This document shows positions 11,787-61,713 of a stretch of 64,000 nt of DNA, piece by piece (the stretch's first letter is position 1; the number at the start of each line of letters is the position of its first letter). The stretch is from a virus (taxonomy: Duplodnaviria > Caudoviricetes), in the IMG/VR virus record IMGVR_UViG_3300050514_000135, positions 33,102 to 97,101 of that record; one strand, written 5' to 3'. The notes under the pieces are model-generated. The model was not told the DNA's origin. It did no database searches and saw only the letters and a list, made by a program, of their open reading frames with translations. The position numbers were made by a program, and so were the translations under genes.

Positions 11787-11795
11787 CTCGTTCCT

Positions 11796-24785: not shown

Positions 24786-25000
24786 TTCTTCGCCGCCTCT
24801 CGGGCTCGTTCGACGAGCGCGCGCAGTGCGAGCAGCTCGCGCATCGCGTCCAGCACGACGACGTAGTGGATCGTGAGCGGCTGCCCCGACCGAGACATTC
24901 CCATCGGGTTGTAGATGACCTCCGACTTCAGGCACTCGATCGCCGCGCGGATGTCTTCCTCCGGTCTTGGCTGGCCGGTGACGTCTTCGAACTCAACCAC
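24782..25000 (-). CDS. Hypothetical protein
   Basis: Overlap-coupled small ORF. Confidence 0.45.
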   Translation of the reverse strand: MVEFEDVTGQPRPEEDIRAAIECLKSEVIYNPMGMSRSGQPLTIHYVVVLDAMRELLALRALVERAREAAKK

Positions 25001-26225
25001 GCGCCCTCATCTCCGCGAACCAGTCACGCAGCAACCTGCCCACGTTGCTCGAGTGGAACGTCTCGCGCGGCCAGTCGACTCGGGACTTGACCGGCTCGCG
25101 GTGCACGCGCTGCATGGCCTCGACGAGCGCGTCGAGCGAGTAGTCGGCCTGCGTCGCAGTCGGCTCCCAGTGGTAGGTCGGCGGCACCGCCTGCTCTCCC
25201 ATGCGCGGGATCAGGATGTCGTCCTCGCCGAGGAAGTCGCGGGGCCCGCCCGAGTCGGTCGTGATCACGCGGCGTCGCGCGAGCTTCGCTTCCAGGAGCG
25301 GCATGTCGACGCCCTCGCCGCGACTCGCCGACACGTACACGTCGCCGTTGCCGTGGATGTCCTCGATCATCTGCTTCCGCGTGAGGACGCGCCGGTCGAC
25401 GACGATCGCGGAGTTTCGGGACGTCCAGCCGTTGCTCGCCGCCTCGTGACTGAACGTCGCCTCGTGGATGAAGTACTCCGGTGCGGGGTAGCCGACCTGC
25501 GCCGTCGCGGTCTTCAGCCACAGCCGCGCCTGGCCCGGCTTGAAGGCGCGCATGAACGCGCGGATGAGGTTCTCGGGAGCCTTCCGCTGCTCCCACGCGC
25601 CGATCCAGTAGAAGGTCCGGACGCTCCTCGGCGGGGGCAGCTGCAGGAGCGCGTCGTCGTCGAAGAACGGGACAGGCACCCACCGAACATTCGTCGAGCC
25701 GGCGTCGCGCAGCGCCCTCTCGTTCGCCGTGCACGGCACCCACACGCCCTCGAGCGTGTTGAGGTAGCGCGCGATGGCCGGCGTCGCGCGGAGCCGCTCG
25801 AACATCGTGTAGAACACGCGGGGCCGCGGCTTCCTGTCGAGCACCTGCCGGATGCACGGGATGAGCACGTCGGGGCGGTGGAAGCACGTCGACCAGACGT
25901 AGGCGTCGTGGGTGTCGGCGCTCCGCGACAAGCCGGCGGCCTCGGCAGCGACCTCCGGCAGCAGCCCGGCTTCGGGGACCACCGGGTAGAGCCGCGCGTC
26001 CACCCCCGCCTCGACCATCGCGCGGGCGTAGCGCCGAGCCAGGATGTCCCAGCCGACGTTCAGGCGGTTCCACGGGCAGTCGAGCACGACGAGCGGCCGG
26101 CCGTCTCGGGCGCGGTGCAGCGCGGCGGCCTGCGGCGCGACGGGCCTCTTCTTGGGCCGCGCCGTCTTCGGGCCGTGCTTGTATCTCAGCGCACGGGCGC
26201 GCCGCGTGATCTGCATCGCCATCAC
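24993..26225 (-). CDS. Glycosyltransferase family 4 (GT-B), basic N-terminal extension
   Basis: FYWIGAWEQRK, DVYVSASRGEGVDMPLLEA. Confidence 0.85.
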   Translation of the reverse strand: MMAMQITRRARALRYKHGPKTARPKKRPVAPQAAALHRARDGRPLVVLDCPWNRLNVGWDILARRYARAMVEAGVDARLYPVVPEAGLLPEVAAEAAGLSRSADTHDAYVWSTCFHRPDVLIPCIRQVLDRKPRPRVFYTMFERLRATPAIARYLNTLEGVWVPCTANERALRDAGSTNVRWVPVPFFDDDALLQLPPPRSVRTFYWIGAWEQRKAPENLIRAFMRAFKPGQARLWLKTATAQVGYPAPEYFIHEATFSHEAASNGWTSRNSAIVVDRRVLTRKQMIEDIHGNGDVYVSASRGEGVDMPLLEAKLARRRVITTDSGGPRDFLGEDDILIPRMGEQAVPPTYHWEPTATQADYSLDALVEAMQRVHREPVKSRVDWPRETFHSSNVGRLLRDWFAEMRARG

Positions 26226-27382
26226 GCGACCTCCGCGCGGGGCAGCTTTGAACGCACCCACCGCGCCACCTCGCGACCGACGGCCGGCGCGTGGTGGTTC
26301 TGCCACGGCCACTCCTTGCTGCCGAAAGTGCGCTGCGGCGGGCGCGGGTTCTTCGCCATGTGCTGCATCGCCGCGGAGAGGTCCTCCACGCGGTAGTCGA
26401 CGCACGTCGAGCCTCGCCCCCAGATCGCGTCGTAGTCGGGCAGGAGCACCGTGCCGTTGCCGACGATGAGCCGGTCGTCGTCGCCGAGGAAGTCGGTGGG
26501 CCCGCCGGACGGCGTCGTGATGACGCGGTTTCCGGAGAGCTTCGCCGCGAACGCCGGCATGTCGATGCCCTCGCCGCGCGACGCCGAGACGTAGACGTCG
26601 TGCGTGTGGTGCAGCACGACCATCTGGTGCTGGGAGAGCAGGTCGCGGATGACGCGGATGTCACGATCGGTCTCCGCGTACGTCCAGCCCCTGTTCTCGA
26701 CGCACTCGTGGGCGATGACCTCCTCCGCCAAAGCGTACGAGCTGTATCGCCACGGTGCCGGACCGATCTTGAGCGTGAGCGTCGCCTCGCCCGGCCTGAA
26801 CGCTCGCATGAACGCCTTGATCAAATTGTGCGGGGCCTTGCGCGGCTCCCAACGACCGATCCAGTAAAAGGCCGGCCGATCGTACTCGGCATCGTGGCAG
26901 CGCTCGGCCAGGTGCGGGTCGTGGTCGAAGAACGGGACGTGGACGAAGTGAGCGTTCTTCACGCCCGCGCGCTGCAGGGCGTGCAGGTTCGCCGAGCACG
27001 GGACGAGCACGCCGTCGAGCTGGTTCAGGAGCGGCACGAGCTCGGGCTGCACGTTCAGGCGCTCGAACATGGTGTAGAAGAGCGCCGGCTTCTTGTAGAG
27101 CTGGCGGTAGTTGATCACGCGCTGCAGGACCTTCACCTGCCCCGAGTCGGGCCCGCCGAACGCGCCGGACCAGAGGTAGGCGTCGGCGGGGCGCGGGCCG
27201 GGACCGATCATGTGCCCGACCTCGCGCTCAACGACCGGGTGGCGCTCCTCGAGCAGCGGCAGCCACGAGTGCAGGCGCACCTCGAGCCCGCCGAGCTCCA
27301 TCGCGCGGGCGTACGCGCGCGAGGCGATGCACCAGCCGTCGAAGAACCGGTCGAAGAGCGTTTCGAATAGGACGACGGTCAC
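26222..27382 (-). CDS. Glycosyltransferase family 4 (GT-B), tandem paralog
   Basis: FYWIGRWEPRK, DVYVSASRGEGIDMP. Confidence 0.85.
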   Translation of the reverse strand: MTVVLFETLFDRFFDGWCIASRAYARAMELGGLEVRLHSWLPLLEERHPVVEREVGHMIGPGPRPADAYLWSGAFGGPDSGQVKVLQRVINYRQLYKKPALFYTMFERLNVQPELVPLLNQLDGVLVPCSANLHALQRAGVKNAHFVHVPFFDHDPHLAERCHDAEYDRPAFYWIGRWEPRKAPHNLIKAFMRAFRPGEATLTLKIGPAPWRYSSYALAEEVIAHECVENRGWTYAETDRDIRVIRDLLSQHQMVVLHHTHDVYVSASRGEGIDMPAFAAKLSGNRVITTPSGGPTDFLGDDDRLIVGNGTVLLPDYDAIWGRGSTCVDYRVEDLSAAMQHMAKNPRPPQRTFGSKEWPWQNHHAPAVGREVARWVRSKLPRAEVA

Positions 27383-27383
27383 C

Positions 27384-27635
27384 CTAGTCCGCCTCGCTCC
27401 AGTCCTCGGCGAGTACGTCCGTCTGCGACGCGAGCCACGGGACGAACTCGTTCTGAGCAGTCTTCATAACGATGAACGGCGCCCTCGCGACATCGAAGTT
27501 CTCCGTCTCTTCGGAACTCCAGCCCGCTGTCACGTACATCAGCCACATACCCTTGCCGTTCCAACCGTTGCGCTCGACGCGCTTGCCCTCGCGCAATCGC
27601 TTGAGCGCCTCGCCGAAGTCAAATTCTTCTTTCAT
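27384..27635 (-). CDS. tad2: DUF2829 / Tad2-like anti-defence nucleotide sponge
   Basis: FGEAL..L..G..V.R.GWNGKGM ... MKTAQN..VPWLASQTDVLAEDW, the hallmark DUF2829 sequence. Confidence 0.85.
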   Translation of the reverse strand: MKEEFDFGEALKRLREGKRVERNGWNGKGMWLMYVTAGWSSEETENFDVARAPFIVMKTAQNEFVPWLASQTDVLAEDWSEAD

Positions 27636-40944: not shown

Positions 40945-42147
40945 TCAGGCGGCGTACCGACCGCGCTTCTTGTGCCGGCGGCGCTTCGGGTTCTGCTGGA
41001 GACGACCCGCGGCGGACTTCGGCAGCTTCGGGGGCTTCCCGAAGAACGCGAACGCGCCGAGCGCGAGACCGGCGAGCGCGAGCGCTCCGACGCCGCCGAG
41101 GCCGGTCGACGTCGACGAGACGGCGGGGTTGGCGACGCAGTCACCCGTAGCGTTGCGGGTGTAGTTCGCCGGGCACTTGTCAACGCACTTGCCGTTCACG
41201 CAATCCTGCGTAGGCGAGCAGCCAGCGTTGTCGGTGCAACCGGGTGCGGGGCCGGGCGTGCCGGTCTTGCAGTCCGGATTGAACGCGCTCTTCGACTGGT
41301 CGATGCTCCCGCACTGGGCCGGGACGGCGACGGACCCGTCGAGGTAAGTCTGCACGTAGATCGCCGCCGCGCAGGTCGTGGGACCGAGCTTGCCGTCCGC
41401 GCCGATCGGGCAGATCTTCTGCGTCGCGAGCGCAGCGTTGATCTTGGCCTGCAGCGCACCGACGTTCGTCGGTGACCCGCCCTCGAGCGCCGCTTGCGCC
41501 AGGCACGTGGGGTCACAGGCGACGACGCAAGCGTCAAACGCCGCGGGGTTGTTTTGATTCTGCGCCGTGCACTTCTGCGCGCACATGTTGTAGCAAGACT
41601 TGTAGGTGATCGTATCGTGCAAGTCGCCTTGCCCGAGTCGACCGGTTCGTCCGATCCATTGCACGCGCCGCGCGCCGAAGATCGGGTGGAACGGGGGCAT
41701 CGGCCGAGCCTGATTCGTCCACGTGATCGTGGTGGTACGTCCAAAGGGCACGATGAACGGCGTCTCGACGAACGGGAAGATCGACTGCCGGGTGTAGAAC
41801 GGGATGGGCACCGTCGCCACGGGCTCGGGCGGCGGCGGGACCATCGCGCCGACCTGGTACGTGACGCCGCCGTCGTACGTGCAGTAGCTCGTGCCGGGGC
41901 CGTAGTACTGGTACGCCTTCTTGTAGACGCCGCACGTGACGTAGCTCGCGCCGTAGGTCTGGCCGAGACTCAGGAGCTGGTTCACGCCCTGCTGGTGAGT
42001 GATCCACCCGGGCGGCGTGTAGGCGTACACGACCGATCCGTTGCCGAACTTCTCGCGCACGGTGAACGTCCACGACTCGGCGTCGTACGGTTGACCGAGT
42101 CGGCCTTGCTTTCCGGCCATCGGTTTGGTCCAGTTCACGTGCTTCAT
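40945..42147 (-). CDS. Cys-rich tail-anchored protein with two leader copies and a PG-binding-like motif
   Basis: MKHVNWTKP..GRLGQ and internal RVQWIGRTGRLGQ; VGALQAKIN...ADGKLGPTT; EGF-like Cys; TM; LQQNPKRRRHKKR. Confidence 0.72.
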   Translation of the reverse strand: MKHVNWTKPMAGKQGRLGQPYDAESWTFTVREKFGNGSVVYAYTPPGWITHQQGVNQLLSLGQTYGASYVTCGVYKKAYQYYGPGTSYCTYDGGVTYQVGAMVPPPPEPVATVPIPFYTRQSIFPFVETPFIVPFGRTTTITWTNQARPMPPFHPIFGARRVQWIGRTGRLGQGDLHDTITYKSCYNMCAQKCTAQNQNNPAAFDACVVACDPTCLAQAALEGGSPTNVGALQAKINAALATQKICPIGADGKLGPTTCAAAIYVQTYLDGSVAVPAQCGSIDQSKSAFNPDCKTGTPGPAPGCTDNAGCSPTQDCVNGKCVDKCPANYTRNATGDCVANPAVSSTSTGLGGVGALALAGLALGAFAFFGKPPKLPKSAAGRLQQNPKRRRHKKRGRYAA

Positions 42148-43025
42148 GTAAACAATCTCCTGTCCGAGTTTTGAAACAGTTTGCCAGACCGGGTCGGCAG
42201 CTGACTGCAGTCGGGCCAGAGCTCGACGGTGAGCGCGCCGGCGACGCGACCGTAGTGGGCCGTGGTCGGGAACATGAAGAGGAACCGGTCCTCCTGCGCG
42301 ATTGCGCCGAGGTCCGTGGGCGGCGTCACGCTGCAGATGTCCGCGGGGTCGAACTGGTTGACGCTCGCGTAGAGCACCACGCGTCCGGGGCCGTAGACCG
42401 GGATGTACGTCTCGAAGTCGCGGTTGTCGCGCCACGTGCCCAGCATGCCGAGCCCCGGCTCGAGGGGCATGCCGCTGTTCGGTGGCACGTACGGGACGAG
42501 CGGCGGGCGGTAGAGCAGCGCGGTGTCGTTCCCCTCGAACGAGACGTCGCGCCCGCCGCCCATGCTCGCGTCGCTGAAGCGGTTCCCGGCCTGGCCGAGG
42601 AGCTGGTGGCGGAGGTGCCACGAGATGTTGCCGCCCGGCGGCTGCCAGAACGGCTCGCGGATCAAGATCTCGAACGGCCGCCCGGGGCAGTCGGGGTTCG
42701 CGCCCGTGAGGAGGCCGGCGAGCGTCTGCGCCGTGTGCACGGCACGCACGACGATCGCGCCATGGTTCGGGATGTCGACGACGACGAGCCGGAACAGGTA
42801 CCGGTGGTACTGGTCCGTGGTCGGGGCGAGCGGCACCTCGATGCCCGTCGAGCTCATGTCGCCGACGTACGGGGACGAACCGACCGCGATGTTGCGCAGT
42901 TGGAACGCGCTCGACACCACGTCGAGCAGCACCGGGCAGCCGCAGAGCCAGTGCCGGTGGTCAGCGCCTACGTGCGCGATCTCGGTCTGTGCTGCGGTTG
43001 CGGGTCCGATCTTCTCAAGTTCCAT
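42144..43025 (-). CDS. Beta-rich putative virion structural protein
   Basis: No TM; alternating beta patterns; follows the candidate capsid genes. Confidence 0.55.
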   Translation of the reverse strand: MELEKIGPATAAQTEIAHVGADHRHWLCGCPVLLDVVSSAFQLRNIAVGSSPYVGDMSSTGIEVPLAPTTDQYHRYLFRLVVVDIPNHGAIVVRAVHTAQTLAGLLTGANPDCPGRPFEILIREPFWQPPGGNISWHLRHQLLGQAGNRFSDASMGGGRDVSFEGNDTALLYRPPLVPYVPPNSGMPLEPGLGMLGTWRDNRDFETYIPVYGPGRVVLYASVNQFDPADICSVTPPTDLGAIAQEDRFLFMFPTTAHYGRVAGALTVELWPDCSQLPTRSGKLFQNSDRRLFT

Positions 43026-43041
43026 CCGTCACACCCTTCGC

Positions 43042-43662
43042 TCAGGGCGGACAGATGCCCTTTTCCTTGAGGACCGCGAGCGCGTCCTGGATCGAGATCT
43101 GCGCGTAGCAGTTGCTGCGCGGGAGACGCATGACGTGGAGGCTGACGATGACCTCGGTCGGGATCTCGTCGGGGTCGACGAGGGCGCGGGTGTTCGTGAA
43201 GGTGGCGATGGCCGACGCCCCGCACGTGAGCACGAGGCCCACCGGGCAGACGCAGCTGAACGCCTCCTCGAAGTTGCCGAGCGGGGTCGGGTCGCTGGAG
43301 ATGACGAAGTTGCACCACGTGCGGATCTGCAGCGTGATGTCGATGTCCGGGTTCTGCGCGTATGCGGTGTTCGCGATGTCGCGGAGAGGGTTGCCGGGAA
43401 AGTAGTTCGGCCGGCGGACGGTCGCCTGGACGTCCTTCAACCAGACGTCGACCTCGGCGAGCTCCTCGAACTTGACGGGCAAGGGTTGGTTGGCGGTCGC
43501 GCTCGTGAACGAGGCGCGGAGGTTCAAGATCTCCCAACCGCCGATCGCGCTCGAGACGATGCCGCGCGCGCTCGCTCCGGAGTACAGGAGCGTCGCAGCG
43601 AGCTTCGGATCGAACTCCGCAATCTCGCCCAACGTGAACTGGCGGGGGGCTGTCTTTCGCAC
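43042..43662 (-). CDS. Beta-rich putative minor capsid protein (jelly-roll candidate)
   Basis: GTG at 43662 after GAGG; beta-strand pattern ending EVIVSLHVMRL. Confidence 0.5.
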   Translation of the reverse strand: MRKTAPRQFTLGEIAEFDPKLAATLLYSGASARGIVSSAIGGWEILNLRASFTSATANQPLPVKFEELAEVDVWLKDVQATVRRPNYFPGNPLRDIANTAYAQNPDIDITLQIRTWCNFVISSDPTPLGNFEEAFSCVCPVGLVLTCGASAIATFTNTRALVDPDEIPTEVIVSLHVMRLPRSNCYAQISIQDALAVLKEKGICPP

Positions 43663-43704
43663 TGTGACCTCGAATCCAAAAGAGAGTGAGTGAAGAGGCG
43701 GTGC

Positions 43705-43734
43705 GGGGTGCCCGAGCGTGAGCCCGAGCACCCC
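43705..43734 (-). terminator. Stem-loop terminator/attenuator after the candidate major capsid gene
   Basis: Minus-strand RNA GGGGUGCUCGGGC-UCAC-GCUCGGGCACCCC, a 13-bp stem whose two mismatches are G-U pairs only on the minus strand; pyrimidine-rich tail follows. Confidence 0.7.
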
Positions 43735-43749
43735 TCGCCGTTAGTCCGA

Positions 43750-44961
43750 TCACTCGTCGGGGTTGACGGTCGCCTTGCGGTTCTCGAGCAGGATCTTGAG
43801 GTTCTCCTTGCCCTGCTTGGTGAGGCCCGAGAGGTGGGCCGTACCCTTGAGCGCGCTCTGCTGGAGCAGGCCCTGGATGTAGCTCGACTCGAGCAACATC
43901 TGGAACTGCAGCGAGTCCGGGTAGACGTAGTTCAGGTAGTCGATGCACGCGCTCGGGAAGAGCTCGACTCCGAACAGGCCCACGCCGAACGAGAAGCACC
44001 CGCCGGGGATGGTGTACGCCGACGAGTAGCCGACGCCGCACGCGGTGTCCTCGGTCAGGATGCCCGGCGCCGGAGACGGGATGGTCTCCAGGTCGAGCAC
44101 GCCCTCGCGACGCATCGCTTCGAGGAAGCAGCAGTCCTGCTCGACGCGCGACAGCCCGATGCGGATCGTGGTCGTCGGGACGTAGAGCAGCGGGCGCTGG
44201 AAGCAGTACATCTTGTGCCCGAGGCCGGTTCCGGTGAAGTGCCCGTAGGTGTTGCCGGCAGTCGGTGCACCGATGCACTCGGTGCCCGCGTCGCCGACGA
44301 CGACGTTCTGCGGGATGAAGAGCCGATCGTAGCCCTTGTCGTGCAACACGCTGTTCGTCGCGATGACGTACTTCTGCGCGGCCGCGAGCGAGTCGCCCGC
44401 ACCGCCGAAGACGTTGGGCTTCGGCCAGACGCCGATGTGGCTCGCGAGCTCGTCGACGACGACGATGCGGCGGCCCATGCGGATCTGCAGGCGATACGCC
44501 TGGACGAAGTTCTCGCCGAAGATCTGCCCGGGACCACCCCAGTCGAGCGCCGCATTGCGCGCGGCAGCGTCGCCGGCGAGTCCGCCGACAGGAACGCAAC
44601 CGTCGAAGCACGGCGTGGCCGAACCCGCGTCGGGCTCGGTGACCAGCGCGCCGGGGAGCGCGAACTGGCGACCCTCAGCGATGAAGGTCAAGAACGCGCC
44701 GAGGGCCAAGAACGGCGTCTCGACGCGCGCGCCGGTGAAGGCGCCGGTGATCTGACGACCGGGACAGGCTTCCGCCTCGGTGTCGACGTTGAAGAACTGG
44801 AGGCCCGCCTCGAACCGAGCGAACTCGGCCGGGGTGAGTGGCATCTTCAACTGGGTCTGGTCGCTGATGATCGCCGTGATGGCGGTCCACGGGAGGTTCA
44901 CTGCCTCGCCGATGCTCGAGACCTTCTTCCAGGCTTGTGCGTTGTTGGTGACGTTGGCCAT
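43750..44961 (-). CDS. Candidate major capsid protein (non-HK97, possibly jelly-roll)
   Basis: 403 aa, no TM, beta-rich; strong purine-rich RBS GGAAGGAAAAAGAGAG, A-rich upstream leader and downstream hairpin suggest high expression. Confidence 0.5.
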   Translation of the reverse strand: MANVTNNAQAWKKVSSIGEAVNLPWTAITAIISDQTQLKMPLTPAEFARFEAGLQFFNVDTEAEACPGRQITGAFTGARVETPFLALGAFLTFIAEGRQFALPGALVTEPDAGSATPCFDGCVPVGGLAGDAAARNAALDWGGPGQIFGENFVQAYRLQIRMGRRIVVVDELASHIGVWPKPNVFGGAGDSLAAAQKYVIATNSVLHDKGYDRLFIPQNVVVGDAGTECIGAPTAGNTYGHFTGTGLGHKMYCFQRPLLYVPTTTIRIGLSRVEQDCCFLEAMRREGVLDLETIPSPAPGILTEDTACGVGYSSAYTIPGGCFSFGVGLFGVELFPSACIDYLNYVYPDSLQFQMLLESSYIQGLLQQSALKGTAHLSGLTKQGKENLKILLENRKATVNPDE

Positions 44962-45053
44962 GTTCTCTCTTTTTCCTTCCGACCGACCGCGGGTCATCCG
45001 CTCCGGCCGCTCAAACAAACTTTGGTTTCGGGGTTAGTTTTTTCTGTCGTGGT

Positions 45054-47452: not shown

Positions 47453-48321
47453 CAGGGTGTCGCCGAGGCTAGCGCGCGCTTCATCGACATCGACGAGCCC
47501 ACGAGGTAGAGGCCGAACCCGACCAGGCCGATGATGCCGACCGTCGCGATGAGCTTCGTGTAGTCGTTGACCGCCGGCGCTCCGGCGTTCTTCTCCGCGG
47601 CGGCGGCGAGCTTCACCGACTCAGCGCCGTCGAGCAGGGCCTTCGTCTGCGCGGCAGCCTGCTCGGGCGTGGCCTTGCCGCTCGTCACGAGCTCCGTCTG
47701 ATTGTTCGAGAGCGTGCGCAGCATCTTGTTCGTGGAGACCGTTGACGCGAGCGCGAACGACTCCTTGACGATCCCGTACGCGGCGAGCGCGATGAGCCCG
47801 TTACCGACGATGCCGCCGGCGATGAGGAGCGGCAGGATGCCGACTGTTCCTGAACCGTGCGCGGTGTTGCCCGACGTCGCGTCGAGGAGCACGGGCTTGC
47901 CGCCCACCACGCCCACGCGCATCGCGTCGGTCGGCAACGCCTCGACCACGAAATCTTGAAGCTGATTGCTGTAGATCAACTTGCGCTTGTTCGCGAGCAC
48001 GTCGCTCGCGCCGTCGACCGCGATCTTGCCCATCGCGACCAGGTCCACTGCCTGCTGGTCGAGGTCAGGACCCCAAGCTCCTGGATCGACTGCGCCGCCC
48101 TCGCCGCCGGTGCCGGACATGAACGGCAGCCCGAGGTCCTCGCGCACCTTCTTCAGTCCGAGATAGGACTTCACCATGGCGTCGCGCGACGCCTGCGTGC
48201 TGTCGCGCAGCGCGGTGATGAGCGCGGTCCAAGCGTCCAGGTTCGGGTCCGCCGGTTGCCCGAGCATGCGCTTCAGCGCGACGGGGATCTGCAGCGGGTT
48301 AGCCCATTTCGTCGTCGTCAT
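47452..48321 (-). CDS. Two-TM membrane protein
   Basis: MTTTKWANP...MLGQ; two hydrophobic helices. Confidence 0.7.
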   Translation of the reverse strand: MTTTKWANPLQIPVALKRMLGQPADPNLDAWTALITALRDSTQASRDAMVKSYLGLKKVREDLGLPFMSGTGGEGGAVDPGAWGPDLDQQAVDLVAMGKIAVDGASDVLANKRKLIYSNQLQDFVVEALPTDAMRVGVVGGKPVLLDATSGNTAHGSGTVGILPLLIAGGIVGNGLIALAAYGIVKESFALASTVSTNKMLRTLSNNQTELVTSGKATPEQAAAQTKALLDGAESVKLAAAAEKNAGAPAVNDYTKLIATVGIIGLVGFGLYLVGSSMSMKRALASATP

Positions 48322-49238
48322 TGGGTAGTCCTCATCTTCGACATGCGATCGTAGAGGTTCAGACCGAGCGTCGCCGCGCTGATCGCGAGTCCCCCGATCA
48401 AGATCTTCTCGAGCGTCGTGAAGTGCTCGCTCTTCTGCGCTGCCTCGCGCTCCTGCTCGGTCTGCGTCTGCCCCAGCCACTGCATGCGAGGCTTGGTCCA
48501 GACGACCGGCTTCGGTTTCGTCTCCCAGATCACCCTGGTGGTGAGCCCCGCGGTGCTGGTAGGCGGGGCTCCGACGCCGACGAAGATCCCGCGGTCGACG
48601 AAGTTGTGCTGTTCGGGATTGAACTGTGTCTGCGCGCCGCTGAAGCAGGCGTGCGCGTCGCACAGCACCTTGATGTTCGGCACGCTGACGACACGCTCGC
48701 GCTGGAACGGCACGCACTCACCGAGTCGGAGCTCGGACAGGCTCGGGTCCGCGTAGTTCCACTTGTCGTTGAACCAGACGACGCAGAGCACGTGCTCGAT
48801 GACGTCGCCGCCGTACCCGTGACCTACGATCGCCACGTGCATTCCGACGGAACCGAACGCCGACGCGCAGAGCACGAGCAGTCCGTCGCAGTCGTCGCCC
48901 TTCAGGCACGGGATCTCGTTGCCGAGCTCGTCGTGGTGGGGCTTCGCCGGGTCGCAAGCGAGTAGATGCGCCTTGGGGATGTATTCCGCGTTGATCGGGT
49001 CAGGCACCCAGAGCTTGGTCTGCGCGGCCTTCAAGATCACGCGCGCCCGCGCCGACGGCGAGTCGACGGCCTGCCCCAGGTTCCTCGCCTCGTCGAGGCG
49101 GTCGATCGCCCAGCTCCGCACGTAGGCGTTGCTCATCCCCTCCGCGACGAACTCGGCCACGCGGTCGAGCGAGGTGCGCGTACCCTGCTCTCCGTACGGG
49201 TGCGACCTCACGTCGGAGACGAACGGGCGCGGCGGCAT
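48318..49238 (-). CDS. Transglutaminase-like Cys protease/transamidase, membrane-anchored
   Basis: GDDCDG (Cys), EHVLC (His), WNYADPS (Asp) triad; C-terminal VVWTKPRMQWLGQ followed by a TM. Confidence 0.78.
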   Translation of the reverse strand: MPPRPFVSDVRSHPYGEQGTRTSLDRVAEFVAEGMSNAYVRSWAIDRLDEARNLGQAVDSPSARARVILKAAQTKLWVPDPINAEYIPKAHLLACDPAKPHHDELGNEIPCLKGDDCDGLLVLCASAFGSVGMHVAIVGHGYGGDVIEHVLCVVWFNDKWNYADPSLSELRLGECVPFQRERVVSVPNIKVLCDAHACFSGAQTQFNPEQHNFVDRGIFVGVGAPPTSTAGLTTRVIWETKPKPVVWTKPRMQWLGQTQTEQEREAAQKSEHFTTLEKILIGGLAISAATLGLNLYDRMSKMRTTQ

Positions 49239-49331: not shown

Positions 49332-50936
49332 TTAGGAGACGGGTCCGCCGTTCGGTCCTACGACGGAGACGTTCGACTGCGGGTTCGTCGCGGCGACCTG
49401 CGGCGGGGGCTGCTGCTGGCTCATCGCCTGCTGCATCTCGGGAGTCATCTGCTTCGACAGCTGCACGAAGCGTTCGGCGCGCTGTAGCGCGGCCTCCTCG
49501 GCCTCCGCCTGCTCCCGCTGCGTCTCGCGGCGCTGCTGCACCATCGTGTTGCGCTCCTCTCGGAACTCTTTGACGATCCCGCGCGCCTCTTTCAGGATGC
49601 CGCGCCCGGCCTCGGCGAGCTTGTCGCCGTTGTACATGGCCATCGTGACCGCGTCGACCGGCGAGCCGGTGGCCTTGTCGAAGACCGCGCGCATGTGCGG
49701 GAGCTCCTTGATCACGTGCGGCAGGACGTTCTCCTCGTCCTTCGTCGGCGGCTCTGGTTCTTCGCGCTCGGGAGGCGCGAACGTCTTCACGTAGCGACGA
49801 CCGAGGCTTGCCATCTCGGAGGCCATCGCGAGCGTCGATTGAAACTGCTCGATTGGCGACGGCGGGTCAGGCTTCTTCTCCTCCGGCTTCGGAGGGGGCG
49901 GTTGCTGCTGCTGGCCGTAACCCGGGTACATCATCCCCATGTACGGGTTCTGGTACATGCTCATCATGTAGGGCAGGAACGGCAGGAGGTGCGGCGGGAT
50001 CTGCGGCTGCGCCTGCTGCGGCTGCTGCGCCGCGCGCTTGACCTCCTCGATCAAGCTCGCGTTCTCGCGCGTGAGCTGCATGAGCATCGCGACCACGTTC
50101 GGGTCCATCATGCCGGGCGCCATCGGGTAAGGCATCTGCGGCATCTGCGGCATCTGCGGTGCCTGCGGCTGAGGTGCTGGCGGCGGTTGCGCTTGCTGAG
50201 GCTGCTGCATCGGCATCGGCATCGGCATCGGCATCGGGTACGGCATCGGCATCATCTGCGGCATCATCTGCTGCGGCATGCCGTAGCCCCACGGCGGCGG
50301 TTGCTGCTGCGGCCAACCCTGCTGCGGCGGTGGGCCCTGCATCGGGTTCGGCATCATCGGGCCGTAACCCGGGTACCCGTAACCGGGAGGCGGTTGATTC
50401 TGGTTCGACACGTCGTCAACCTCCTCGCGCTCGGCGAAGTTCACCTTGCCGGTGGCTTTCTGATAGTTCGTGCTGTCGCAGATCCACCACTTGTAGACCG
50501 CCCGAGCGCCCCTCCAGTGGTTGTTCGCCAGGTGGTCGACCATCTTCGGCCAAGTGTCGATCGCCGCGACGGCCTTCGTCGGGACGCGGTCGTCCGTGAC
50601 GGGCTCGATCTGCTGGAAGCGCACGTACGCCCCGGGATTCTCGCGCGCCGCCATCTCGTACTTGTGCGGGTCCGGAGCGTCGAATCGAATGTTCGTATCG
50701 CCTGCTGCTTTTCTTTTTGCCACGTGGTTCATCACCTGGTTCAGTCGCGCACTCTCTGGATCGTAGCCGATGTTGTTCGCGACGCTCGGGTCGATCGGAA
50801 CGTTCGAGTACGGGAGTCCTGTCTGCGGATTTACCGGAGTTCCAGGCGGGTACATCGGTCCCGGCTTGATGTCGGCCCGCCTCGTAGGAGTCTTCTCCCG
50901 TTTCTTCTTCGGCTTCTGTTTCTCTTCGTCGGCCAT
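49332..50936 (-). CDS. Pro/Gln/Met/Tyr-rich low-complexity protein with C-terminal coiled coil
   Basis: Long PQM tracts (GGCATC/CTG repeats at 50100-50350), flanked by ordered domains. Confidence 0.75.
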   Translation of the reverse strand: MADEEKQKPKKKREKTPTRRADIKPGPMYPPGTPVNPQTGLPYSNVPIDPSVANNIGYDPESARLNQVMNHVAKRKAAGDTNIRFDAPDPHKYEMAARENPGAYVRFQQIEPVTDDRVPTKAVAAIDTWPKMVDHLANNHWRGARAVYKWWICDSTNYQKATGKVNFAEREEVDDVSNQNQPPPGYGYPGYGPMMPNPMQGPPPQQGWPQQQPPPWGYGMPQQMMPQMMPMPYPMPMPMPMPMQQPQQAQPPPAPQPQAPQMPQMPQMPYPMAPGMMDPNVVAMLMQLTRENASLIEEVKRAAQQPQQAQPQIPPHLLPFLPYMMSMYQNPYMGMMYPGYGQQQQPPPPKPEEKKPDPPSPIEQFQSTLAMASEMASLGRRYVKTFAPPEREEPEPPTKDEENVLPHVIKELPHMRAVFDKATGSPVDAVTMAMYNGDKLAEAGRGILKEARGIVKEFREERNTMVQQRRETQREQAEAEEAALQRAERFVQLSKQMTPEMQQAMSQQQPPPQVAATNPQSNVSVVGPNGGPVS

Positions 50937-52840: not shown

Positions 52841-53356
52841 TCAAGTCGTGCTCTCCAACGCTGCGAACATCTTCTCGTAGAACTTCGCGAACGGGCACCA
52901 CCTCAGGAACTCCTCGCGCGTGAACCAGGTCACTGGGCAGCCGAGCTCGCACTCGCGCGGGTGCTCGTCGTCGCCGACCGCGTCAAACTTCCTCGTCTGC
53001 ACGCGGAACACGAGACAGTACGTGCCGCGCCCGTCGTTGAAGTGCGGCTCAGTCGGCGCTTCATAGATCTGCTTGTACGTGAACGAGACCAAGCCGGTCT
53101 CCTCTTGAAGTTCGCGCGCGCACGCCACGCCCGGAGTCTCACCCTCCTCGACGAGACCGCCCGGCATCGTCCAGCCGCCGTAGCGCTTGTTCCAGACGAC
53201 GAGCATGCGCCCGTCTTCGCGGGTGACGTACGCTACTGCGGCGCGGCGCATCAGGTTGCAGCCGGGATAGTCCGCGCAGATCAACTTGCTGTCGATCCCG
53301 TCGATCGTGTGGTGGGTCGCCGGCTCTCCGCACCGCTCGCACTTCAGTTCGGTCAC
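52841..53356 (-). CDS. Nudix hydrolase with an N-terminal Zn ribbon
   Basis: CERC...C; GGLVEEGETPGVACARELQEETG. Confidence 0.85.
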   Translation of the reverse strand: MTELKCERCGEPATHHTIDGIDSKLICADYPGCNLMRRAAVAYVTREDGRMLVVWNKRYGGWTMPGGLVEEGETPGVACARELQEETGLVSFTYKQIYEAPTEPHFNDGRGTYCLVFRVQTRKFDAVGDDEHPRECELGCPVTWFTREEFLRWCPFAKFYEKMFAALESTT

Positions 53357-54141
53357 GGCGCCACCCATTGCAGAGAACTGATCAGTTCTTCCGGCGGTTC
53401 CTCGCCGAGCGAGGTCAGGTCCTTCACGGGCACGCCGACGAGCTTGGCCGCCGCGGCCTCGATGCGCATCCCGTCGGAGATGCGACCGCCCACGAGCCAG
53501 ACCTCGTCGCAGCGCTTGATGAGCGAGCAGTCCGCGCGCAGGCCCTGCTCGCGGTACGACTCGTCGAGCTGGCTCGCGAGCACGATCCAATCCGCGACCG
53601 TCGAGTAGCCTGACTTGAACGCCCACGCGCACCAGCGCGCGGCGCGCGCGATGTTCGCGTCTCGGTCGGGACCCGATAGCGGGTGCGCGATGTAGACGAC
53701 CTTCATGTCGCGGTAGTGGACATCCGCGGCGCGGCGCTCGTCGACGAGCCGGTTGTTGTCCTGCTGGAGCTGGGTGATCGTCTTTTTTAGACCAACGATC
53801 ACGTCCTCGACGTCGCCGAGTGTTTTGAGCCCGGCGACGCGCTTCCGCAGCCCGGTCACCTCGGAGGTGATCGACTGCTCGACCCAAGTCGCGATCTCGT
53901 CCGGCTTCGTTTCGCCCTCGATCGACCTGTGCACGTTCGTGAACTCGGCCAAGCGCAGGAGCTGCGCCTTGAACGTGTCCCGTTCGACGATGACCCGCTT
54001 CACGCAGGTTGCAGGGGAGAGGTACCCGCTCGGGTCGCGATCGTCGTCCGAGCCGTAATCCTCGTCGTGCTCCACGAGCACGCCCTTGACCTCCGCGAGC
54101 TCGCACGACGCCTCGGTGATCACCTCGATCGTCGGCATCAC
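53353..54141 (-). CDS. Coiled-coil + DUF4406/NDT-like domain protein
   Basis: VVYIAHPLSG...NIARA...RCDEVWLVGGRISDGMRIE. Confidence 0.7.
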   Translation of the reverse strand: MMPTIEVITEASCELAEVKGVLVEHDEDYGSDDDRDPSGYLSPATCVKRVIVERDTFKAQLLRLAEFTNVHRSIEGETKPDEIATWVEQSITSEVTGLRKRVAGLKTLGDVEDVIVGLKKTITQLQQDNNRLVDERRAADVHYRDMKVVYIAHPLSGPDRDANIARAARWCAWAFKSGYSTVADWIVLASQLDESYREQGLRADCSLIKRCDEVWLVGGRISDGMRIEAAAAKLVGVPVKDLTSLGEEPPEELISSLQWVAP

Positions 54142-54383: not shown

Positions 54384-54889
54384 TCCTCCAGTGCCTTGAT
54401 CAGTTGCTTCTTCAGTCTCTCGTGCGTGGCCTTGAGCTGCTCCTGCTTCTCGCTCGCCACGTGCAGAGCCAAGGTCGCTCGTTCGACCTCTTGCTTCTTG
54501 AAGGCGACGTCCTCGTCGGCCTTCACCACGAGCTCGCGCATCGCCTTGACTTCGAGGTAGAGCGAGTCGGTGTCGATCGCCGCGTGCGACGAGCACGCCA
54601 TGTTCTCGCACGTCGCGGTCACGGAATTGAAAGCGTTCGTCTTGCACAGTGGGCAGGCGATGAACTCGTAGTGCGAGTCGTTCCCGTTCCCGTTCTTCTT
54701 CCCGTTGGGCTCGAACCCTATCTTCTTCAGGTCGGAGACCGTGTTCTTGAGCGCGCGGTGGTCCTCGCTGTCCGAGAACACCGTCTGCCTCCCGTCAGAC
54801 GCGGTCACCCGATGGTGGCCGCGCGACGTGCGCTCGACCGAGAACCCCTGTCTCCGGAGCTCGGTGCGGAGCTTGTCGAAGTCGCTCAC
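54380..54889 (-). CDS. HicA-like N-terminal domain fused to a Zn ribbon and coiled coil
   Basis: LRRQGFSVERTSRGHHRV...SDHRALKN...LKKIG; CPLC...C. Confidence 0.55.
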   Translation of the reverse strand: MSDFDKLRTELRRQGFSVERTSRGHHRVTASDGRQTVFSDSEDHRALKNTVSDLKKIGFEPNGKKNGNGNDSHYEFIACPLCKTNAFNSVTATCENMACSSHAAIDTDSLYLEVKAMRELVVKADEDVAFKKQEVERATLALHVASEKQEQLKATHERLKKQLIKALEE

Positions 54890-55899
54890 GGCTCGGTCTC
54901 CCACTCCTCTAGCAGGCACCTGAACACGGCGTACGGGTTCGACCCGACCTCGGCCGACTGCTCGACCGTGAAGCCCGCAGCAGCGGTGTGCCCGCCCCCG
55001 CCGTGCGCCTTGCAGAACGCGCCGACGTCGTAGCCGCTGTGGCTGCGCGTCGAGAACGTGAGCTGGAGCTTGTCCGCGTCCACGCGGTAGTGGAAGCCGG
55101 CGACGATGTCGGTCATCGCCTTGCCGAACTTCTCCTTCTGCGACTTCTCCAAGATCTCAGCGGCGTCGCTCGTCGTGTACACGCCCTGGAACACGTGCAC
55201 GAGCGTACCCTTCTTGGTCACGAACGGGTGCGCCTCCTTGAGCGCGTTGTTCGCCGACTCTACCTTCTTGTCGAAGAGCACAGGGCCGAGTGACCCGACC
55301 GTCGACATCGTCTTCTCGATGCCGAGCGTGAGCGCGTCATTACCCCAGAACATCAGCGCCTCGGCCTGCCAGCACGCCTCCTGCCAGCGCTCGTCGTGCT
55401 TCTTCCACGTGTCGCGTATGCCAGCGAGTTCAGCGAATTCATGAACCGAGTTTTTGATCTCATTCCACTCGTTCGCGTCCCGCAATGGCTTCCACACGTG
55501 CTCGTACGCGAGCCACGCGCCGCACTCGTTCCTGTCGTTCTCGCCATACGCCCCGAGCCCGGCCTTGACGAACAGCATCGTGACGTCGCGCTGGGTCGGG
55601 TGGTGGTCGAGGACGATCGTGCCAGCCTCGAGCCAGTGCTTGAGCTGCAGCGGGTGACGAACGCAGTCGTCTTCGCCCTCTCGGCTCGCGTCCCACGACT
55701 TGATGTGCGGGCTGAAGTCGCAGAACAGGTCGCCGGGTCGCGGCTCCAGCGCGCGATGCTCCTCCGTCCCGTGCTTCACGAACAGGACCTCGACGTCCGG
55801 CAGAGCGTCCTTGACGATGAGCGCGCTCGCGTACCCGTCCGGGCAGTTCGCGTGCGTGATCAGGCGCTTCACCTGCTTCAGTTTCTCGATCGAGATCAC
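54886..55899 (-). CDS. DHH/DHHA1 phosphoesterase
   Basis: HANCPDG, CDFS, VLDHH, RDTW, GGGGHTAAAGF. Confidence 0.88.
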   Translation of the reverse strand: MISIEKLKQVKRLITHANCPDGYASALIVKDALPDVEVLFVKHGTEEHRALEPRPGDLFCDFSPHIKSWDASREGEDDCVRHPLQLKHWLEAGTIVLDHHPTQRDVTMLFVKAGLGAYGENDRNECGAWLAYEHVWKPLRDANEWNEIKNSVHEFAELAGIRDTWKKHDERWQEACWQAEALMFWGNDALTLGIEKTMSTVGSLGPVLFDKKVESANNALKEAHPFVTKKGTLVHVFQGVYTTSDAAEILEKSQKEKFGKAMTDIVAGFHYRVDADKLQLTFSTRSHSGYDVGAFCKAHGGGGHTAAAGFTVEQSAEVGSNPYAVFRCLLEEWETEP

Positions 55900-56087
55900 T
55901 TGAACACCTCCTCCAGGCTGATCACGCGCTTCTTGTCGGCCGCGTCCTGCGCCTCGACCGACTCGACGCCGTTCTCGTACATCTCCTTCATGTCGCGGTA
56001 GTTGCGCCGCGACAGGTAGTGCTTCGTGACGCGCGAGACGCGGTCGATCTCCGCGACCTCGCGCAGGCGCTTCAGCACGGACGACAT
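55896..56087 (-). CDS. Hypothetical protein
   Basis: Overlap-coupled. Confidence 0.5.
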   Translation of the reverse strand: MSSVLKRLREVAEIDRVSRVTKHYLSRRNYRDMKEMYENGVESVEAQDAADKKRVISLEEVFK

Positions 56088-56425
56088 CAGTTCCCGCCCT
56101 TCGCCAGCGCCTCGACGATGTCGTTCGGGACGGCGAACTTCGCCATGCCGTCGGCGAGCCGCGACATCTCCTCGTCGGTCGGGAACGTCTTTTGGAACTC
56201 GCGCAGGCCAATGGCCATGCGGAGCGAGAAGCGCGCCGACGCCATGATCTCCTCGGGCGCAGGCTTCTCCTTCTGGGCGTCGTAGTCCGCGAGGTAGAGG
56301 CTCAGTTTCTCGATGTACTCGTCGAGGTCGAGCTGGCGCGCCAGGTGCGCGACGTCGTAGATGCGCGCCTGGATCTCCAGCTCAGCCTCGGTCAGCGTCT
56401 CGGCCATCGTCGTGCTCTCGGTCAT
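56087..56425 (-). CDS. Hypothetical protein
   Basis: Overlap-coupled; GAGGAG RBS. Confidence 0.6.
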   Translation of the reverse strand: MTESTTMAETLTEAELEIQARIYDVAHLARQLDLDEYIEKLSLYLADYDAQKEKPAPEEIMASARFSLRMAIGLREFQKTFPTDEEMSRLADGMAKFAVPNDIVEALAKGGN

Positions 56426-60121: not shown

Positions 60122-60293
60122 GCCTCGTCCACCAATTTCTGGAGCGCGCGGCGCACCTTCTCGCGAGCGTCCAAGTCGATGCCGCAGTCCTCGACCGGGA
60201 CCTCGAGAACGATCGGCTGGCCGACGACCTTTCGAACGACGTCGACGGTCACGTACTCCTCGGCGATGGTCGCGAGCTCGATTCGGATGCGTT

Positions 60294-60500
60294 TCATGAC
60301 TGGGCCTCCTTGATCTCGCGCTCGAGTTGATCAGCCCAAGCATGGAGGTCGTCGCTCTCGCGTGATAACTCCCGCAACCGATCGACGAGCTTCAATCGGT
60401 CCAGCGTGACGACGTCCGCGGCAGCGTCCAACCTGAACTCGAGAGGGACCTGCACCTCGAGTGGCAGCATCCGCGCCACGTCCTTCGCCTTCTTGATCAC
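60294..60500 (-). CDS. Hypothetical protein
   Basis: Overlap-coupled. Confidence 0.45.
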   Translation of the reverse strand: MIKKAKDVARMLPLEVQVPLEFRLDAAADVVTLDRLKLVDRLRELSRESDDLHAWADQLEREIKEAQS

Positions 60501-61459
60501 GACCGCGCCCCCAGGATGTCCTCCTCATGCGGGATCAGCTTCCGGTACTGGACCCAGCCGTTCAGGTTACCGAGGAAGTGCGTGCGATCTCCGGGCAGCA
60601 CGACCGAGTCACCGTTCTCGTGGTACTCCGCGCCGATCCATCGCCATCGATTGCCGACCCAACGCCACTTGGGTTGGCTAAACATCGCGAGTTCTAGATT
60701 GGTCATCGGGCGCGCCACGTGCTCGAACGGCGCCATGTGCCCGCTCGCGAGCATCATGTCGGTTCGAGCGATCGACTTCTCAGGGTGCTCGCCCTCGTTC
60801 TGCTTGTCGTACGACACGCGGGCGCAGCGACCGATCGAGATTTTGCACACCGCGTCCGGGAATTCCGACTCGTTCGTGACCACGATGTCGAACGCCTCGC
60901 TGGGCGACACGAGCGGTGTGTGCCAATCGCCGTAGTCCAGCGCCCTCGGGTTCCCGTTCGCGTAGAGCTCCCGCATCGCGTGCGCGAGGTCGCGGAAGTC
61001 CGGGTGCGCGTCCTTGTTGTCGCGCAGGTTGAAGAAGTTCGACCACTCGGTGCCGGTGACGAGCGCTGTGTGAAACATGAACGGCTCGAGGAGCCGGTTC
61101 GTGATCTGCTTGTGGATGCCGTGCTTCAAAAGCCGCGCAGCCTGCTCTACTGCGGCGTCTCGTGCGGCTTCCCACTCAATCGCGGCGAACTTTCCTGCAT
61201 CAGGCGAAACATCCTGCTCGGCCTGCATCCCCTTTTGGTTCTTGCCCCAGTGCGTCGGCACGTACGGGTCCTCGAGCACGCGCGCGATCATCTTCTCGAC
61301 GGGGATCGCCCGCGAGCTCGCGCTGCTCTTGCTTAACATCTTGTGCGTGTTCACCTCGGCCAGGATGATGCGCGGGTGCACGCACTCGAACGTGGTCAGG
61401 CGGTGGCCGGCTGGGGATACGGAGTCGCAGATGATCTTGGAGGATGTTGTCGTGGTCAT
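60497..61459 (-). CDS. thyX: FAD-dependent thymidylate synthase (phage type)
   Basis: RIILAEVNTHKMLSKSSASSRAIP, HKQITNRLLEPF, NFFNLR..AHP, RCARVSY, HMAPFEHVA. Confidence 0.88.
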   Translation of the reverse strand: MTTTTSSKIICDSVSPAGHRLTTFECVHPRIILAEVNTHKMLSKSSASSRAIPVEKMIARVLEDPYVPTHWGKNQKGMQAEQDVSPDAGKFAAIEWEAARDAAVEQAARLLKHGIHKQITNRLLEPFMFHTALVTGTEWSNFFNLRDNKDAHPDFRDLAHAMRELYANGNPRALDYGDWHTPLVSPSEAFDIVVTNESEFPDAVCKISIGRCARVSYDKQNEGEHPEKSIARTDMMLASGHMAPFEHVARPMTNLELAMFSQPKWRWVGNRWRWIGAEYHENGDSVVLPGDRTHFLGNLNGWVQYRKLIPHEEDILGARS

Positions 61460-61713
61460 TTTCCTGGTCCTGGCATCGGTCGTATGGGTCTGTCGACCTG
61501 AATATTATTCAGAGTCTCGAGGCGCTCGATCTCGTGGTTCAGGTACCATCTCGCTTTACGAAGATCCTCGAGCTCGCTGCCCTTGTGCGCGGCGCGCGCG
61601 ATGTACTTCACGGTGTTGCCGAGAGCGAAGCCGAGCTTCCAGTCGTCGATCACGTCGATGACCTCGAACCTGCCTGCGTTGTAGTGCTTCGGGTGGTTGA
61701 CGGAGTCGCTCAC
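61456..61713 (-). CDS. DUF3310 family protein
   Basis: DSVNHPKHY...EVIDVI...FALGNTVKYIARA.HK..EDLRKARWYL. Confidence 0.88.
   Translation of the reverse strand: MSDSVNHPKHYNAGRFEVIDVIDDWKLGFALGNTVKYIARAAHKGSELEDLRKARWYLNHEIERLETLNNIQVDRPIRPMPGPGK

What the first reader, a model, noticed from the sequence alone, without database searches (positions are those of the whole stretch)
42144..45053. Three consecutive soluble beta-rich proteins with expression signals marking the first as the major capsid protein
Seen in sequence: 43750-44961 has an A-rich ~90-bp leader, a very strong RBS and a downstream 13-bp hairpin that is fully paired only on the coding strand. Two further TM-less, Cys-containing beta-rich genes follow. 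Inference: one major and two minor jelly-roll-type shell proteins, with stoichiometry set by the attenuating hairpin.
Basis: inference. Interest (0 to 1): 0.7.

Follow-up and report, generated by a model that had tools for sequence, protein, structure and literature searches.

The report
Jelly-roll capsid trio of tailless virus
Three neighbouring genes of an undescribed 93-kb bacterial virus with no tailed-phage genes most likely encode its protein shell: two are predicted jelly-roll proteins, and the first carries conserved high-expression signals, so it is probably the main building block.

Summary
Three soluble, acidic, Cys-containing proteins (403, 206 and 293 aa) are encoded on the minus strand at 42144-44961, among membrane-protein genes. 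The record is a 93,375-bp virus genome with no HK97 capsid, terminase, PRD1-type capsid or FtsK/A32 ATPase match.

The trio and its flanks are syntenic in eight related metagenomic viruses, down to 34% identity. The 13-bp hairpin after g1 is the strongest compact stem-loop on that strand in the 64-kb window. A top-ranked stem-loop sits in the same gap in four diverged relatives, one with a U-tract. A purine-rich leader before g1 occurs in every relative examined. The Shine-Dalgarno match, however, is not exceptional.

Best reading (0.6): g1 is the major capsid protein, g3 a vertex or second shell protein, and g2 a shell partner. The "major versus minor" ranking and the attenuation idea remain inference, because no RNA or particle data could be obtained.

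This scan noted the same trio earlier on other DNA (e1-5350404, e1-3052359). It appears undescribed in the literature searched.

The parts
44962..45053 (-). 92-nt A-rich 5' leader of g1. It contains a stem-loop at about 44980-45009, followed by an unstructured GA-rich stretch up to the ATG.
   Evidence: Composition is 33 A, 22 C, 27 G and 10 T. The stem-loop followed by an open purine tract is seen in the window, L003 and L002. A GA-rich tract before the ATG occurs in all 7 relatives examined.
43750..44961 (-). g1: 403 aa, 43.0 kDa, pI 5.1, 10 Cys. Predicted single jelly roll with long loop insertions and a C-terminal helical region. Candidate major capsid protein.
43705..43734 (-). 13-bp GC-rich stem-loop (2 G-U pairs, 4-nt loop) in the g1-g2 gap. 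Candidate partial terminator or 3' stabiliser.
   Evidence: Strongest compact stem-loop on the strand. z -4.6. Stem-loops in the same gap rank first or second in L002, L003, L005 and L006.
43042..43662 (-). g2: 206 aa from a GTG start, 22.4 kDa, pI 5.1, 6 Cys with a conserved FxCVCPxG motif. Fold not determined.
   Evidence: Start set by a 100%-identical 206-aa database protein and by alignment A3. Homologues follow g1 in every related locus. Weak predicted association with g1/g3.
42144..43025 (-). g3: 293 aa, 32.0 kDa, pI 5.7, 5 Cys. Predicted single jelly roll. Candidate vertex (penton) or second shell protein. Its stop codon overlaps the start of the next gene (ATGA).

Best explanation
g1-g2-g3 form the conserved shell module of an undescribed, tailless, probably membrane-lined dsDNA virus with a 93.4-kb genome.

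- g1 is the major capsid protein. It is a single jelly roll whose eight-strand core is spread over residues ~25-335, with large loop insertions and a helical C-terminal arm.
- g3 is a second single-jelly-roll protein, most likely the fivefold-vertex (penton) protein or a second shell protein. It is translationally coupled to a C-terminally anchored membrane protein.
- g2 is a third conserved soluble protein that probably binds g1.
- g1 has its own leader: a 5' stem-loop followed by an unstructured purine-rich ribosome-loading region.
- g1 is followed by a strong stem-loop that either ends part of the transcripts or protects the 3' end of a g1 message. Either way g1 would be made in excess over g2 and g3, which lie only 42 nt beyond the stem-loop and so depend on read-through.

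Shown: the sequence features, their conservation, and the predicted folds. Inferred: presence in the virion, relative abundance, and what the hairpin does.
For: Fold:
- g1 (pTM 0.71) and g3 (pTM 0.81) model as jelly rolls.

No competing capsid candidate:
- The whole 97-kb record has no match to Phage_capsid (HK97), PRD1 P3, Terminase_6N, FtsK or Pox_A32.

Core status:
- The order [50942][49332][48318][47452][45054]-g1-g2-g3-[40945] is kept in eight related loci at 34-72% g1 identity.
- g1 is the best-conserved protein against the closest relative: 70%, versus 64% for g2, 54% for g3 and 45-63% for the neighbours.
- The three are soluble and acidic among membrane proteins.

Expression signals:
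- The hairpin is the top stem-loop of its strand in 64 kb.
- Different-sequence stem-loops rank first or second in the same gap in L002, L003, L005 and L006. The L005 one is followed by UUUUU.
- The GA-rich leader is present in all relatives.

Predicted association:
- Complex prediction with g2 as partner against g1+g3 gave weak support: score 0.35, best of 3 controls 0.00.
- The mark was reached by 58 of 80 solved complexes and 2 of 110 mismatched pairs. At 0.60 or under it was reached by only 7 of those 80 and by both mismatches that passed.
- The runs agree in at least 0% of contacts, and the partner's pLDDT is at least 70.
- Replacing g1 dropped the score to 0.00.

Link to a cultured tailless virus:
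- The upstream gene 48318-49238 matches SSIP-1 structural protein gp34 (blastp E 5.6e-5, similar length and register).
Against: - Foldseek found nothing at E <= 0.001 in PDB for g1.
- No sequence or profile link to any solved capsid protein.
- g2's fold is unknown.
- The SD match of g1 is weaker than that of g3 and other neighbours.
- The hairpin lacks a U-tract here and is absent in L008 and L009.
- In distant relatives g1 is not the best-conserved gene.
- There are no transcript, proteome or particle data.
Confidence: 0.6

Rival explanations
1. The shell is built from heteromeric capsomers of two or three co-major proteins (g1 with g2 and/or g3), as in sphaerolipoviruses and P23-77. On this view there is no single 'major' protein with two 'minor' ones.
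For: - Viruses with vertical single jelly rolls use two adjacent capsid genes that form heterodimers (PMC6414509).
- SSIP-1 is said to encode two capsid protein types (PMC6356626).
- g1 and g3 both hit these capsid proteins.
- g2 shows weak predicted association that depends on g1.
- All three genes are equally universal in relatives.
Against: - The stem-loop and separate leader single out g1.
- The three families show no profile similarity to one another.
- g3's best match is a probable penton chain rather than a facet protein.
Confidence: 0.2
2. They are virion proteins but not the shell: spikes, receptor binders, cement, or sub-capsomer proteins between shell and membrane. The true capsid protein would be an unrecognised gene elsewhere.
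For: - Much of the genome is unannotated.
Against: - Receptor-binding proteins are usually variable, whereas g1 is aligned full-length in every relative and has 69 diverged cluster representatives.
- The other conserved soluble protein of the block (49332-50936, 534 aa) aligns over only about 150-185 aa even in the closest relative.
- No other capsid family was found.
Confidence: 0.12
3. The hairpin does not set stoichiometry. It would be an ordinary full terminator with g2-g3 transcribed from their own promoter, a processing or stability site, or a DNA-level protein-binding palindrome.
For: - There is no U-tract after the stem in the window.
- The opposite strand folds nearly as well in context (-32.6 vs -33.9).
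- L008 and L009 have no hairpin.
- In the L003 clade an upstream segment can pair with the 5' arm, giving an alternative fold.
Against: - Only 42 nt separate the stem from the g2 start, which leaves little room for a promoter.
- The G-U pairs favour an RNA role on the coding strand.
- The sequence is not conserved but the position is, as expected of terminators.
- The L005 version is a canonical stem plus U-run.
Confidence: 0.3
4. The three proteins are not virion components. They would be soluble beta-sandwich proteins with an enzymatic or host-interaction role.
For: PHM-like and carbohydrate-binding folds are among the matches. No family annotation exists.
Against: - No conserved His or metal-site pattern appears among the invariant columns.
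- The genes sit inside a block of conserved membrane and structural-type genes, one of which is related to an SSIP-1 structural protein.
- Most top matches among Foldseek-ranked chains are viral capsid proteins.
Confidence: 0.05

Closest known systems
[quoted passage not shown]
   Same: - Tailless-type gene content.
- A run of consecutive mid-sized structural proteins (gp44-gp48).
- The window gene 48318-49238 matches SSIP-1 structural protein gp34 (E 5.6e-5).
- The g1 family's conserved N-terminal PLTxxEF...F motif aligns to gp45. It is the best of 57 SSIP-1 proteins, but hhalign E is only ~1e-3 and probability 17-22%.
   Different: - The genome is twice as large (93 vs 44 kb).
- There is no HMMER-level match of g1, g2 or g3 to SSIP-1.
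- g1 is about twice the size of gp45/gp46.
- SSIP-1's capsid protein folds are not solved, as far as I know, so the comparison cannot be structural.
Portogloboviridae (Sulfolobus polyhedral virus 1): capsid proteins VP4 (hexamers) and VP10 (pentamers)
   Same: [quoted passage not shown]
- No packaging ATPase is among SPV1's assigned functions.
- Here a protamine-like basic protein is encoded directly upstream of g1.
   Different: - SPV1 is an archaeal hyperthermophile virus with a 20-kb genome.
- There is no sequence similarity.
- g1 is more than twice as long as the SPV1 chain.
- Which SPV1 chain is VP4 or VP10 was not verified here.
Vertical single-jelly-roll viruses (Sphaerolipoviridae, Simuloviridae, P23-77: VP4/VP7 or VP16/VP17 plus penton VP9)
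   Same: - Adjacent genes for single-jelly-roll shell proteins, and an internal membrane with many small membrane proteins.
- There the penton docks on a membrane protein (PMC6414509). Here g3 overlaps the start of a membrane-protein gene.
   Different: - Those viruses have 16-30-kb genomes and a packaging ATPase. No FtsK/A32-type ATPase was found here.
- The only Walker-A proteins are a primase-helicase and a UvrD helicase.
- There is no sequence similarity.
PRD1 (Tectiviridae) coat protein P3 and other double-jelly-roll capsid proteins
   Different: - The g1 model holds one beta-sandwich, not two.
- There is no match to the P3 Pfam family.
- No packaging ATPase was found.

Membership tests
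Viral jelly-roll capsid proteins (structural class) | Eight-stranded beta-sandwich (jelly-roll) core | tested here: met
   [not shown]
Viral jelly-roll capsid proteins (structural class) | Protein is the main component of the particle shell | not testable with these tools
Vertical single-jelly-roll, two-capsid-protein viruses (Sphaerolipoviridae, P23-77 and allies) | Two adjacent single-jelly-roll capsid genes whose products form heteromers | tested here: inconclusive
   g1 and g3 are jelly rolls, but they are separated by g2. The only association tested (g2 against g1+g3) gave weak support: 0.35 vs control 0.00.
Vertical single-jelly-roll, two-capsid-protein viruses (Sphaerolipoviridae, P23-77 and allies) | FtsK/HerA (A32-like) packaging ATPase in the structural module | tested here: not met
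   The 97-kb record has no PF01580 or PF04665 match. Its two Walker-A ORFs are a primase-helicase and a UvrD helicase.
Vertical single-jelly-roll, two-capsid-protein viruses (Sphaerolipoviridae, P23-77 and allies) | Sequence or profile similarity to VP4/VP7/VP16/VP17 | tested here: not met
   Profiles A1-A4 against all PDB chain sequences gave no capsid hit at E <= 10.
Double-jelly-roll capsid proteins (PRD1 P3 type) | Two jelly rolls in one chain | tested here: not met
   The g1 model has about 12 strands forming one sandwich spread over residues 25-335. PF09018 gave no match.
Portogloboviridae-like architecture | A single-jelly-roll hexamer protein plus a single-jelly-roll penton protein, a nucleoprotein core and no packaging ATPase | tested here: inconclusive
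   [not shown]
SSIP-1-like tailless phages | Homologues of SSIP-1 virion proteins | tested here: inconclusive
   There is one modest hit: gene 48318-49238 to gp34, E 5.6e-5. The g1-to-gp45 link is a 21-31-column motif only. HMMER searches of the record were empty.
HK97-fold tailed phages (Caudoviricetes) | HK97 capsid protein and large terminase | tested here: not met
   PF05065 and PF03237 gave no match at E <= 1 in the whole record.
Intrinsic (rho-independent) terminator | GC-rich stem-loop directly after a gene | tested here: met
   13-bp stem with 10 G-C pairs and dG -26.4, starting 16 nt after the g1 stop codon.
Intrinsic (rho-independent) terminator | U-tract immediately 3' of the stem | tested here: not met
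   The stem is followed by GCACCGCC in the window, and the consensus scan does not list it. The L005 counterpart does carry UUUUU.

The most novel reading that the evidence does not exclude
These genes may mark a lineage of bacterial viruses with 70-120-kb genomes. Such viruses would build a large membrane-lined icosahedral shell from single-jelly-roll proteins and fill it without any packaging motor. The DNA would be condensed by the protamine-like protein encoded next to g1 and the shell assembled around it. That would be a bacterial counterpart of the archaeal portoglobovirus design, at four to five times the genome size.
Probability: 0.2. Interest if true: 0.85.

Novelty: new variant of a known kind. 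Interest (0 to 1): 0.6.

Why it matters
Known bacterial viruses with jelly-roll shells and internal membranes have genomes of about 10-44 kb and use an ATPase motor. A widespread soil and groundwater group at 70-93 kb with single-jelly-roll shell candidates and no recognisable motor would extend the size range of this architecture. It would also raise the question of how such a genome is packaged.

Naming g1 as the probable major capsid protein gives a marker gene with 69 diverged cluster representatives. That marker can be used to find these viruses in metagenomes, where standard phage markers all miss them. It also gives a defined target for expression, antibody production and cryo-EM.

Tried and rejected
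- **Family searches.** Pfam and PHROGs on g1-g3 and their neighbours gave no family.
- **Phage collection.** tblastn of g1 against 50,697 phage records gave no match.
- **Foldseek.** Against PDB, g1 gave only weak papillomavirus L1 rows (E 6e-3, TM 0.15), which I do not count. Against BFVD, the best g1 row was an unnamed 211-aa entry (I1ZBH9, probability 0.97, E 4.8e-3). I could not identify it, so I do not use it.
- **ESM Atlas.** No usable hit for g1. For g2 its own model is poor (pTM 0.19) and the neighbours are meaningless.
- **Paralogy among the three.** hhalign among the three families found none, so a 'three paralogues' reading is rejected.
- **PDB sequence profiles.** Nothing found.
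- **SSIP-1.** HMMER searches of the record with A2, A3 and A4 were empty.
- **Hairpin covariation.** The RNAalifold test failed because MAFFT misaligned the four gap sequences. I compared the stems by eye instead.
- **Shared promoter motif.** A search for the conserved upstream motif elsewhere in the window found only the motif itself.
- **Genome collection.** The genome-contig scan found no relative, so the host was not tested.
- **Tools unavailable.** The SPV1 record and two papers (PMC3344969, PMC6842630) were not held.
Full report
**Context.** The window is bases 33102-97101 of a 97,101-base IMG/VR virus record. The first 3,726 bases of the record repeat at its end with one mismatch, so the genome unit is 93,375 bp, either circular or terminally redundant. 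GC content is about 66%.

Recognisable genes include:
- an integrase, GDP-sugar enzymes and glycosyltransferases;
- a family-A polymerase, a UvrD helicase and a primase-helicase.

Six-frame family searches of the whole record found no HK97 capsid, PRD1 P3, Terminase_6N, FtsK or Pox_A32 match. The only two Walker-A ORFs are the replication helicases.

**The observation.** On the minus strand:
- g1 is 43750-44961 (403 aa, 43.0 kDa).
- g2 is best placed at 43042-43662 (206 aa, GTG start). This follows a 100%-identical 206-aa database protein and the alignment of relatives.
- g3 is 42144-43025 (293 aa).

All three are acidic (pI 5.1-5.7), contain 10, 6 and 5 Cys, and lack a convincing TM helix. 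Eight of the ten flanking genes I profiled carry TM segments, and most of those eight are basic.

The g1 leader is 92 nt with 36% A. The 20 nt before the ATG are 90% purine. The anti-SD duplex energy is -9.3 kcal/mol, in the top 7% of background. It is weaker than that of g3 (-10.5) and of the gene at 40552 (-12.1), so the RBS is good but not exceptional.

The hairpin at 43705-43734 has 13 uninterrupted pairs, two of them G-U, and a 4-nt loop, with dG -26.4. It is the strongest compact stem-loop on the minus strand of the entire window. Its z-score is -4.6 against dinucleotide shuffles. In 60-nt context the energies differ little (-33.9 vs -32.6).

**Relatives.**
- g1 has 18 close to moderate homologues and 69 representatives at 50% clustering, down to 22% identity.
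- g3 has 33 homologues.
- g2 has 7 by word search, but a g2 gene follows g1 in every related locus.

Eleven related contigs were fetched. In eight of them the order [50942][49332][48318][47452][45054]-g1-g2-g3-[40945] is kept, wherever the contig extends that far. This holds at g1 identities from 72% down to 34%.

Against the closest relative, g1 is the most conserved protein of the block: 70%, versus 64% for g2, 54% for g3 and 45-63% for the others. In distant relatives it is not the top gene.

None of the three families has a Pfam or PHROG match or a profile match to any PDB sequence. They are not detectably related to one another.

**Folds.** The g1 model (19-row alignment) has pLDDT 72.7 and pTM 0.71. 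Its strands are spread from residue 29 to 334, with long insertions, and helices fill residues 336-393.

An exhaustive structural search gave only moderate scores:

Non-viral sandwiches (PHM, discoidin, CBM) scored alongside these.

Re-alignment of Foldseek's top 1000 chains gave:
- iridovirus, STIV, a chain of the P23-77 VP16-VP17 complex, vaccinia D13, polyomavirus and picornavirus capsid proteins below these.

PMC6414509 states that the first 40 residues of the HHIV-2 penton protein VP9 are disordered, and that capsid subunits are lettered A-X and a. Chain b starts at about residue 40, so I take it to be VP9. This is an inference, not a check of the entry.

**Expression signals in relatives.** A GA-rich tract directly before the g1 ATG is present in all seven relatives examined. 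In the window, L003 and L002 it is preceded by a stem-loop whose outer pairs differ between viruses.

After g1, related loci show the following:
- Stem-loops of unrelated sequence occupy the g1-g2 gap in L002, L003, L005, L006 and L010.
- In L002, L005 and L006 the gap stem-loop ranks first among all stem-loops of the locus strand. In L003 it ranks second.
- The L005 version is a canonical stem plus UUUUU.
- L008 has no hairpin, and in L009 g2 starts 12 nt after g1.
- Between the window and L003 the inner stem and both G-U positions are the same, while the outer stem differs by paired changes. I judged this by eye. The automatic covariation test failed on a poor alignment.

In the window, g2 starts 42 nt after the stem and g3 starts 16 nt after g2. 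g2 and g3 therefore most simply depend on read-through.

The g3 stop overlaps the ATG of the next gene (ATGA). That gene encodes a Cys-rich, C-terminally anchored membrane protein.

**Association.** Complex prediction with g2 as partner against g1 and g3 returned weak support: score 0.35, best of 3 controls 0.00.
- The mark was reached by 58 of 80 solved complexes and 2 of 110 mismatched pairs.
- At 0.60 or under it was reached by only 7 of those 80, and by both mismatches that passed.
- The runs agree in at least 0% of contacts, and the partner's pLDDT is at least 70.
- Replacing g1 gave 0.00.

This is a hint, no more.

**Comparison with known viruses.** Earlier notes of this scan on other genomes name SSIP-1 as the closest cultured virus, so I tested that.
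- HMMER searches of the SSIP-1 record with the three profiles were empty.
- hhalign of the g1 profile against all 57 SSIP-1 proteins ranks structural protein gp45 first. The match rests on a 21-31-column PLTxxEF...F motif (E about 1e-3 per comparison, probability 17-22%), which is marginal after 57 tests.
- Independently, the conserved upstream gene 48318-49238 matches SSIP-1 structural protein gp34 (E 5.6e-5, same length and register).

So a distant tie to SSIP-1 is plausible but thin.

In design, the nearest parallel is the archaeal portoglobovirus SPV1 (PMC8459092):
- a single-jelly-roll hexamer protein and a single-jelly-roll penton protein;
- no packaging ATPase among its assigned functions.

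Here a 619-aa protein with a strongly basic N-terminal half (pI 10.7) is encoded directly upstream of g1.

The sphaerolipovirus model has two jelly-roll capsid proteins plus a penton docked on a membrane protein (PMC6414509). It fits the gene neighbourhood, but the ATPase it requires is missing here.

**Verdict.**
- The jelly-roll fold is supported for g1 and g3.
- Shell function is the best available reading in a genome with no other capsid candidate.
- g1 is singled out by conserved expression signals.

The major/minor ranking, the role of g2, and attenuation by the hairpin remain inferences. I found no description of this virus group in the paper library. The scan itself has reported the same trio on other DNA.

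Noticed in passing
G000 1-3726 and 93376-97101 (window 60275-64000): The record ends repeat its first 3,726 bases with one mismatch. The genome unit is therefore 93,375 bp, circular or terminally redundant, although IMG/VR classes the record as linear and 57% complete.
   Followed up: yes
window 48318-49238 (-): This conserved 306-aa protein with one TM segment matches SSIP-1 structural protein gp34 (304 aa). blastp E is 5.6e-5 with 26.5% identity over 98 residues in the same register. It is the only sequence-level link to a cultured virus that I found.
   Followed up: partly
whole record G000: No recognisable DNA-packaging ATPase or terminase. The only Walker-A ORFs are a 932-aa primase-helicase (G000 9588-12383) and a UvrD-type helicase (G000 24454-26322).
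   Followed up: partly
window 42144-42147: The g3 stop codon overlaps the ATG of the next gene (ATGA). That gene encodes a 400-aa protein with 18 Cys and a C-terminal TM anchor. The overlap suggests translational coupling of a penton-like protein with a membrane protein.
   Followed up: partly
L003 11216-11290, L002 4680-4760, L004 846-945: In the ~70%-identity clade, a segment just after the g1 stop can pair with the 5' arm of the hairpin. This gives two mutually exclusive folds, like an antiterminator/terminator pair. The window lacks this segment.
   Followed up: no
window 44980-45009 (-): A stem-loop sits in the g1 leader, followed by an unstructured purine tract. Equivalent stem-loops with different outer pairs occur in L003 and L002. 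It could be a 5' mRNA stabiliser.
   Followed up: partly
window 18582-27463: The virus encodes a GDP-mannose 4,6-dehydratase, a second NAD-dependent epimerase/dehydratase and two group-1 glycosyltransferases. It may therefore make its own sugar modification, possibly of virion proteins or of the host surface.
   Followed up: no
L005-L007, L010, L011 (contig names): Several distant relatives come from contigs labelled Hain-H14/H41/H51-01um. The label looks like a 0.1-micrometre filter fraction of a groundwater series, which would fit free particles, but the sample description was not checked.
   Followed up: no
window 53353-54141 and 54886-56301 (-): A DUF7768/DUF4406-domain protein (E 8e-18) and a protein with a DHHA1 domain (E 2.5e-5) lie upstream of the structural block.
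   Followed up: no
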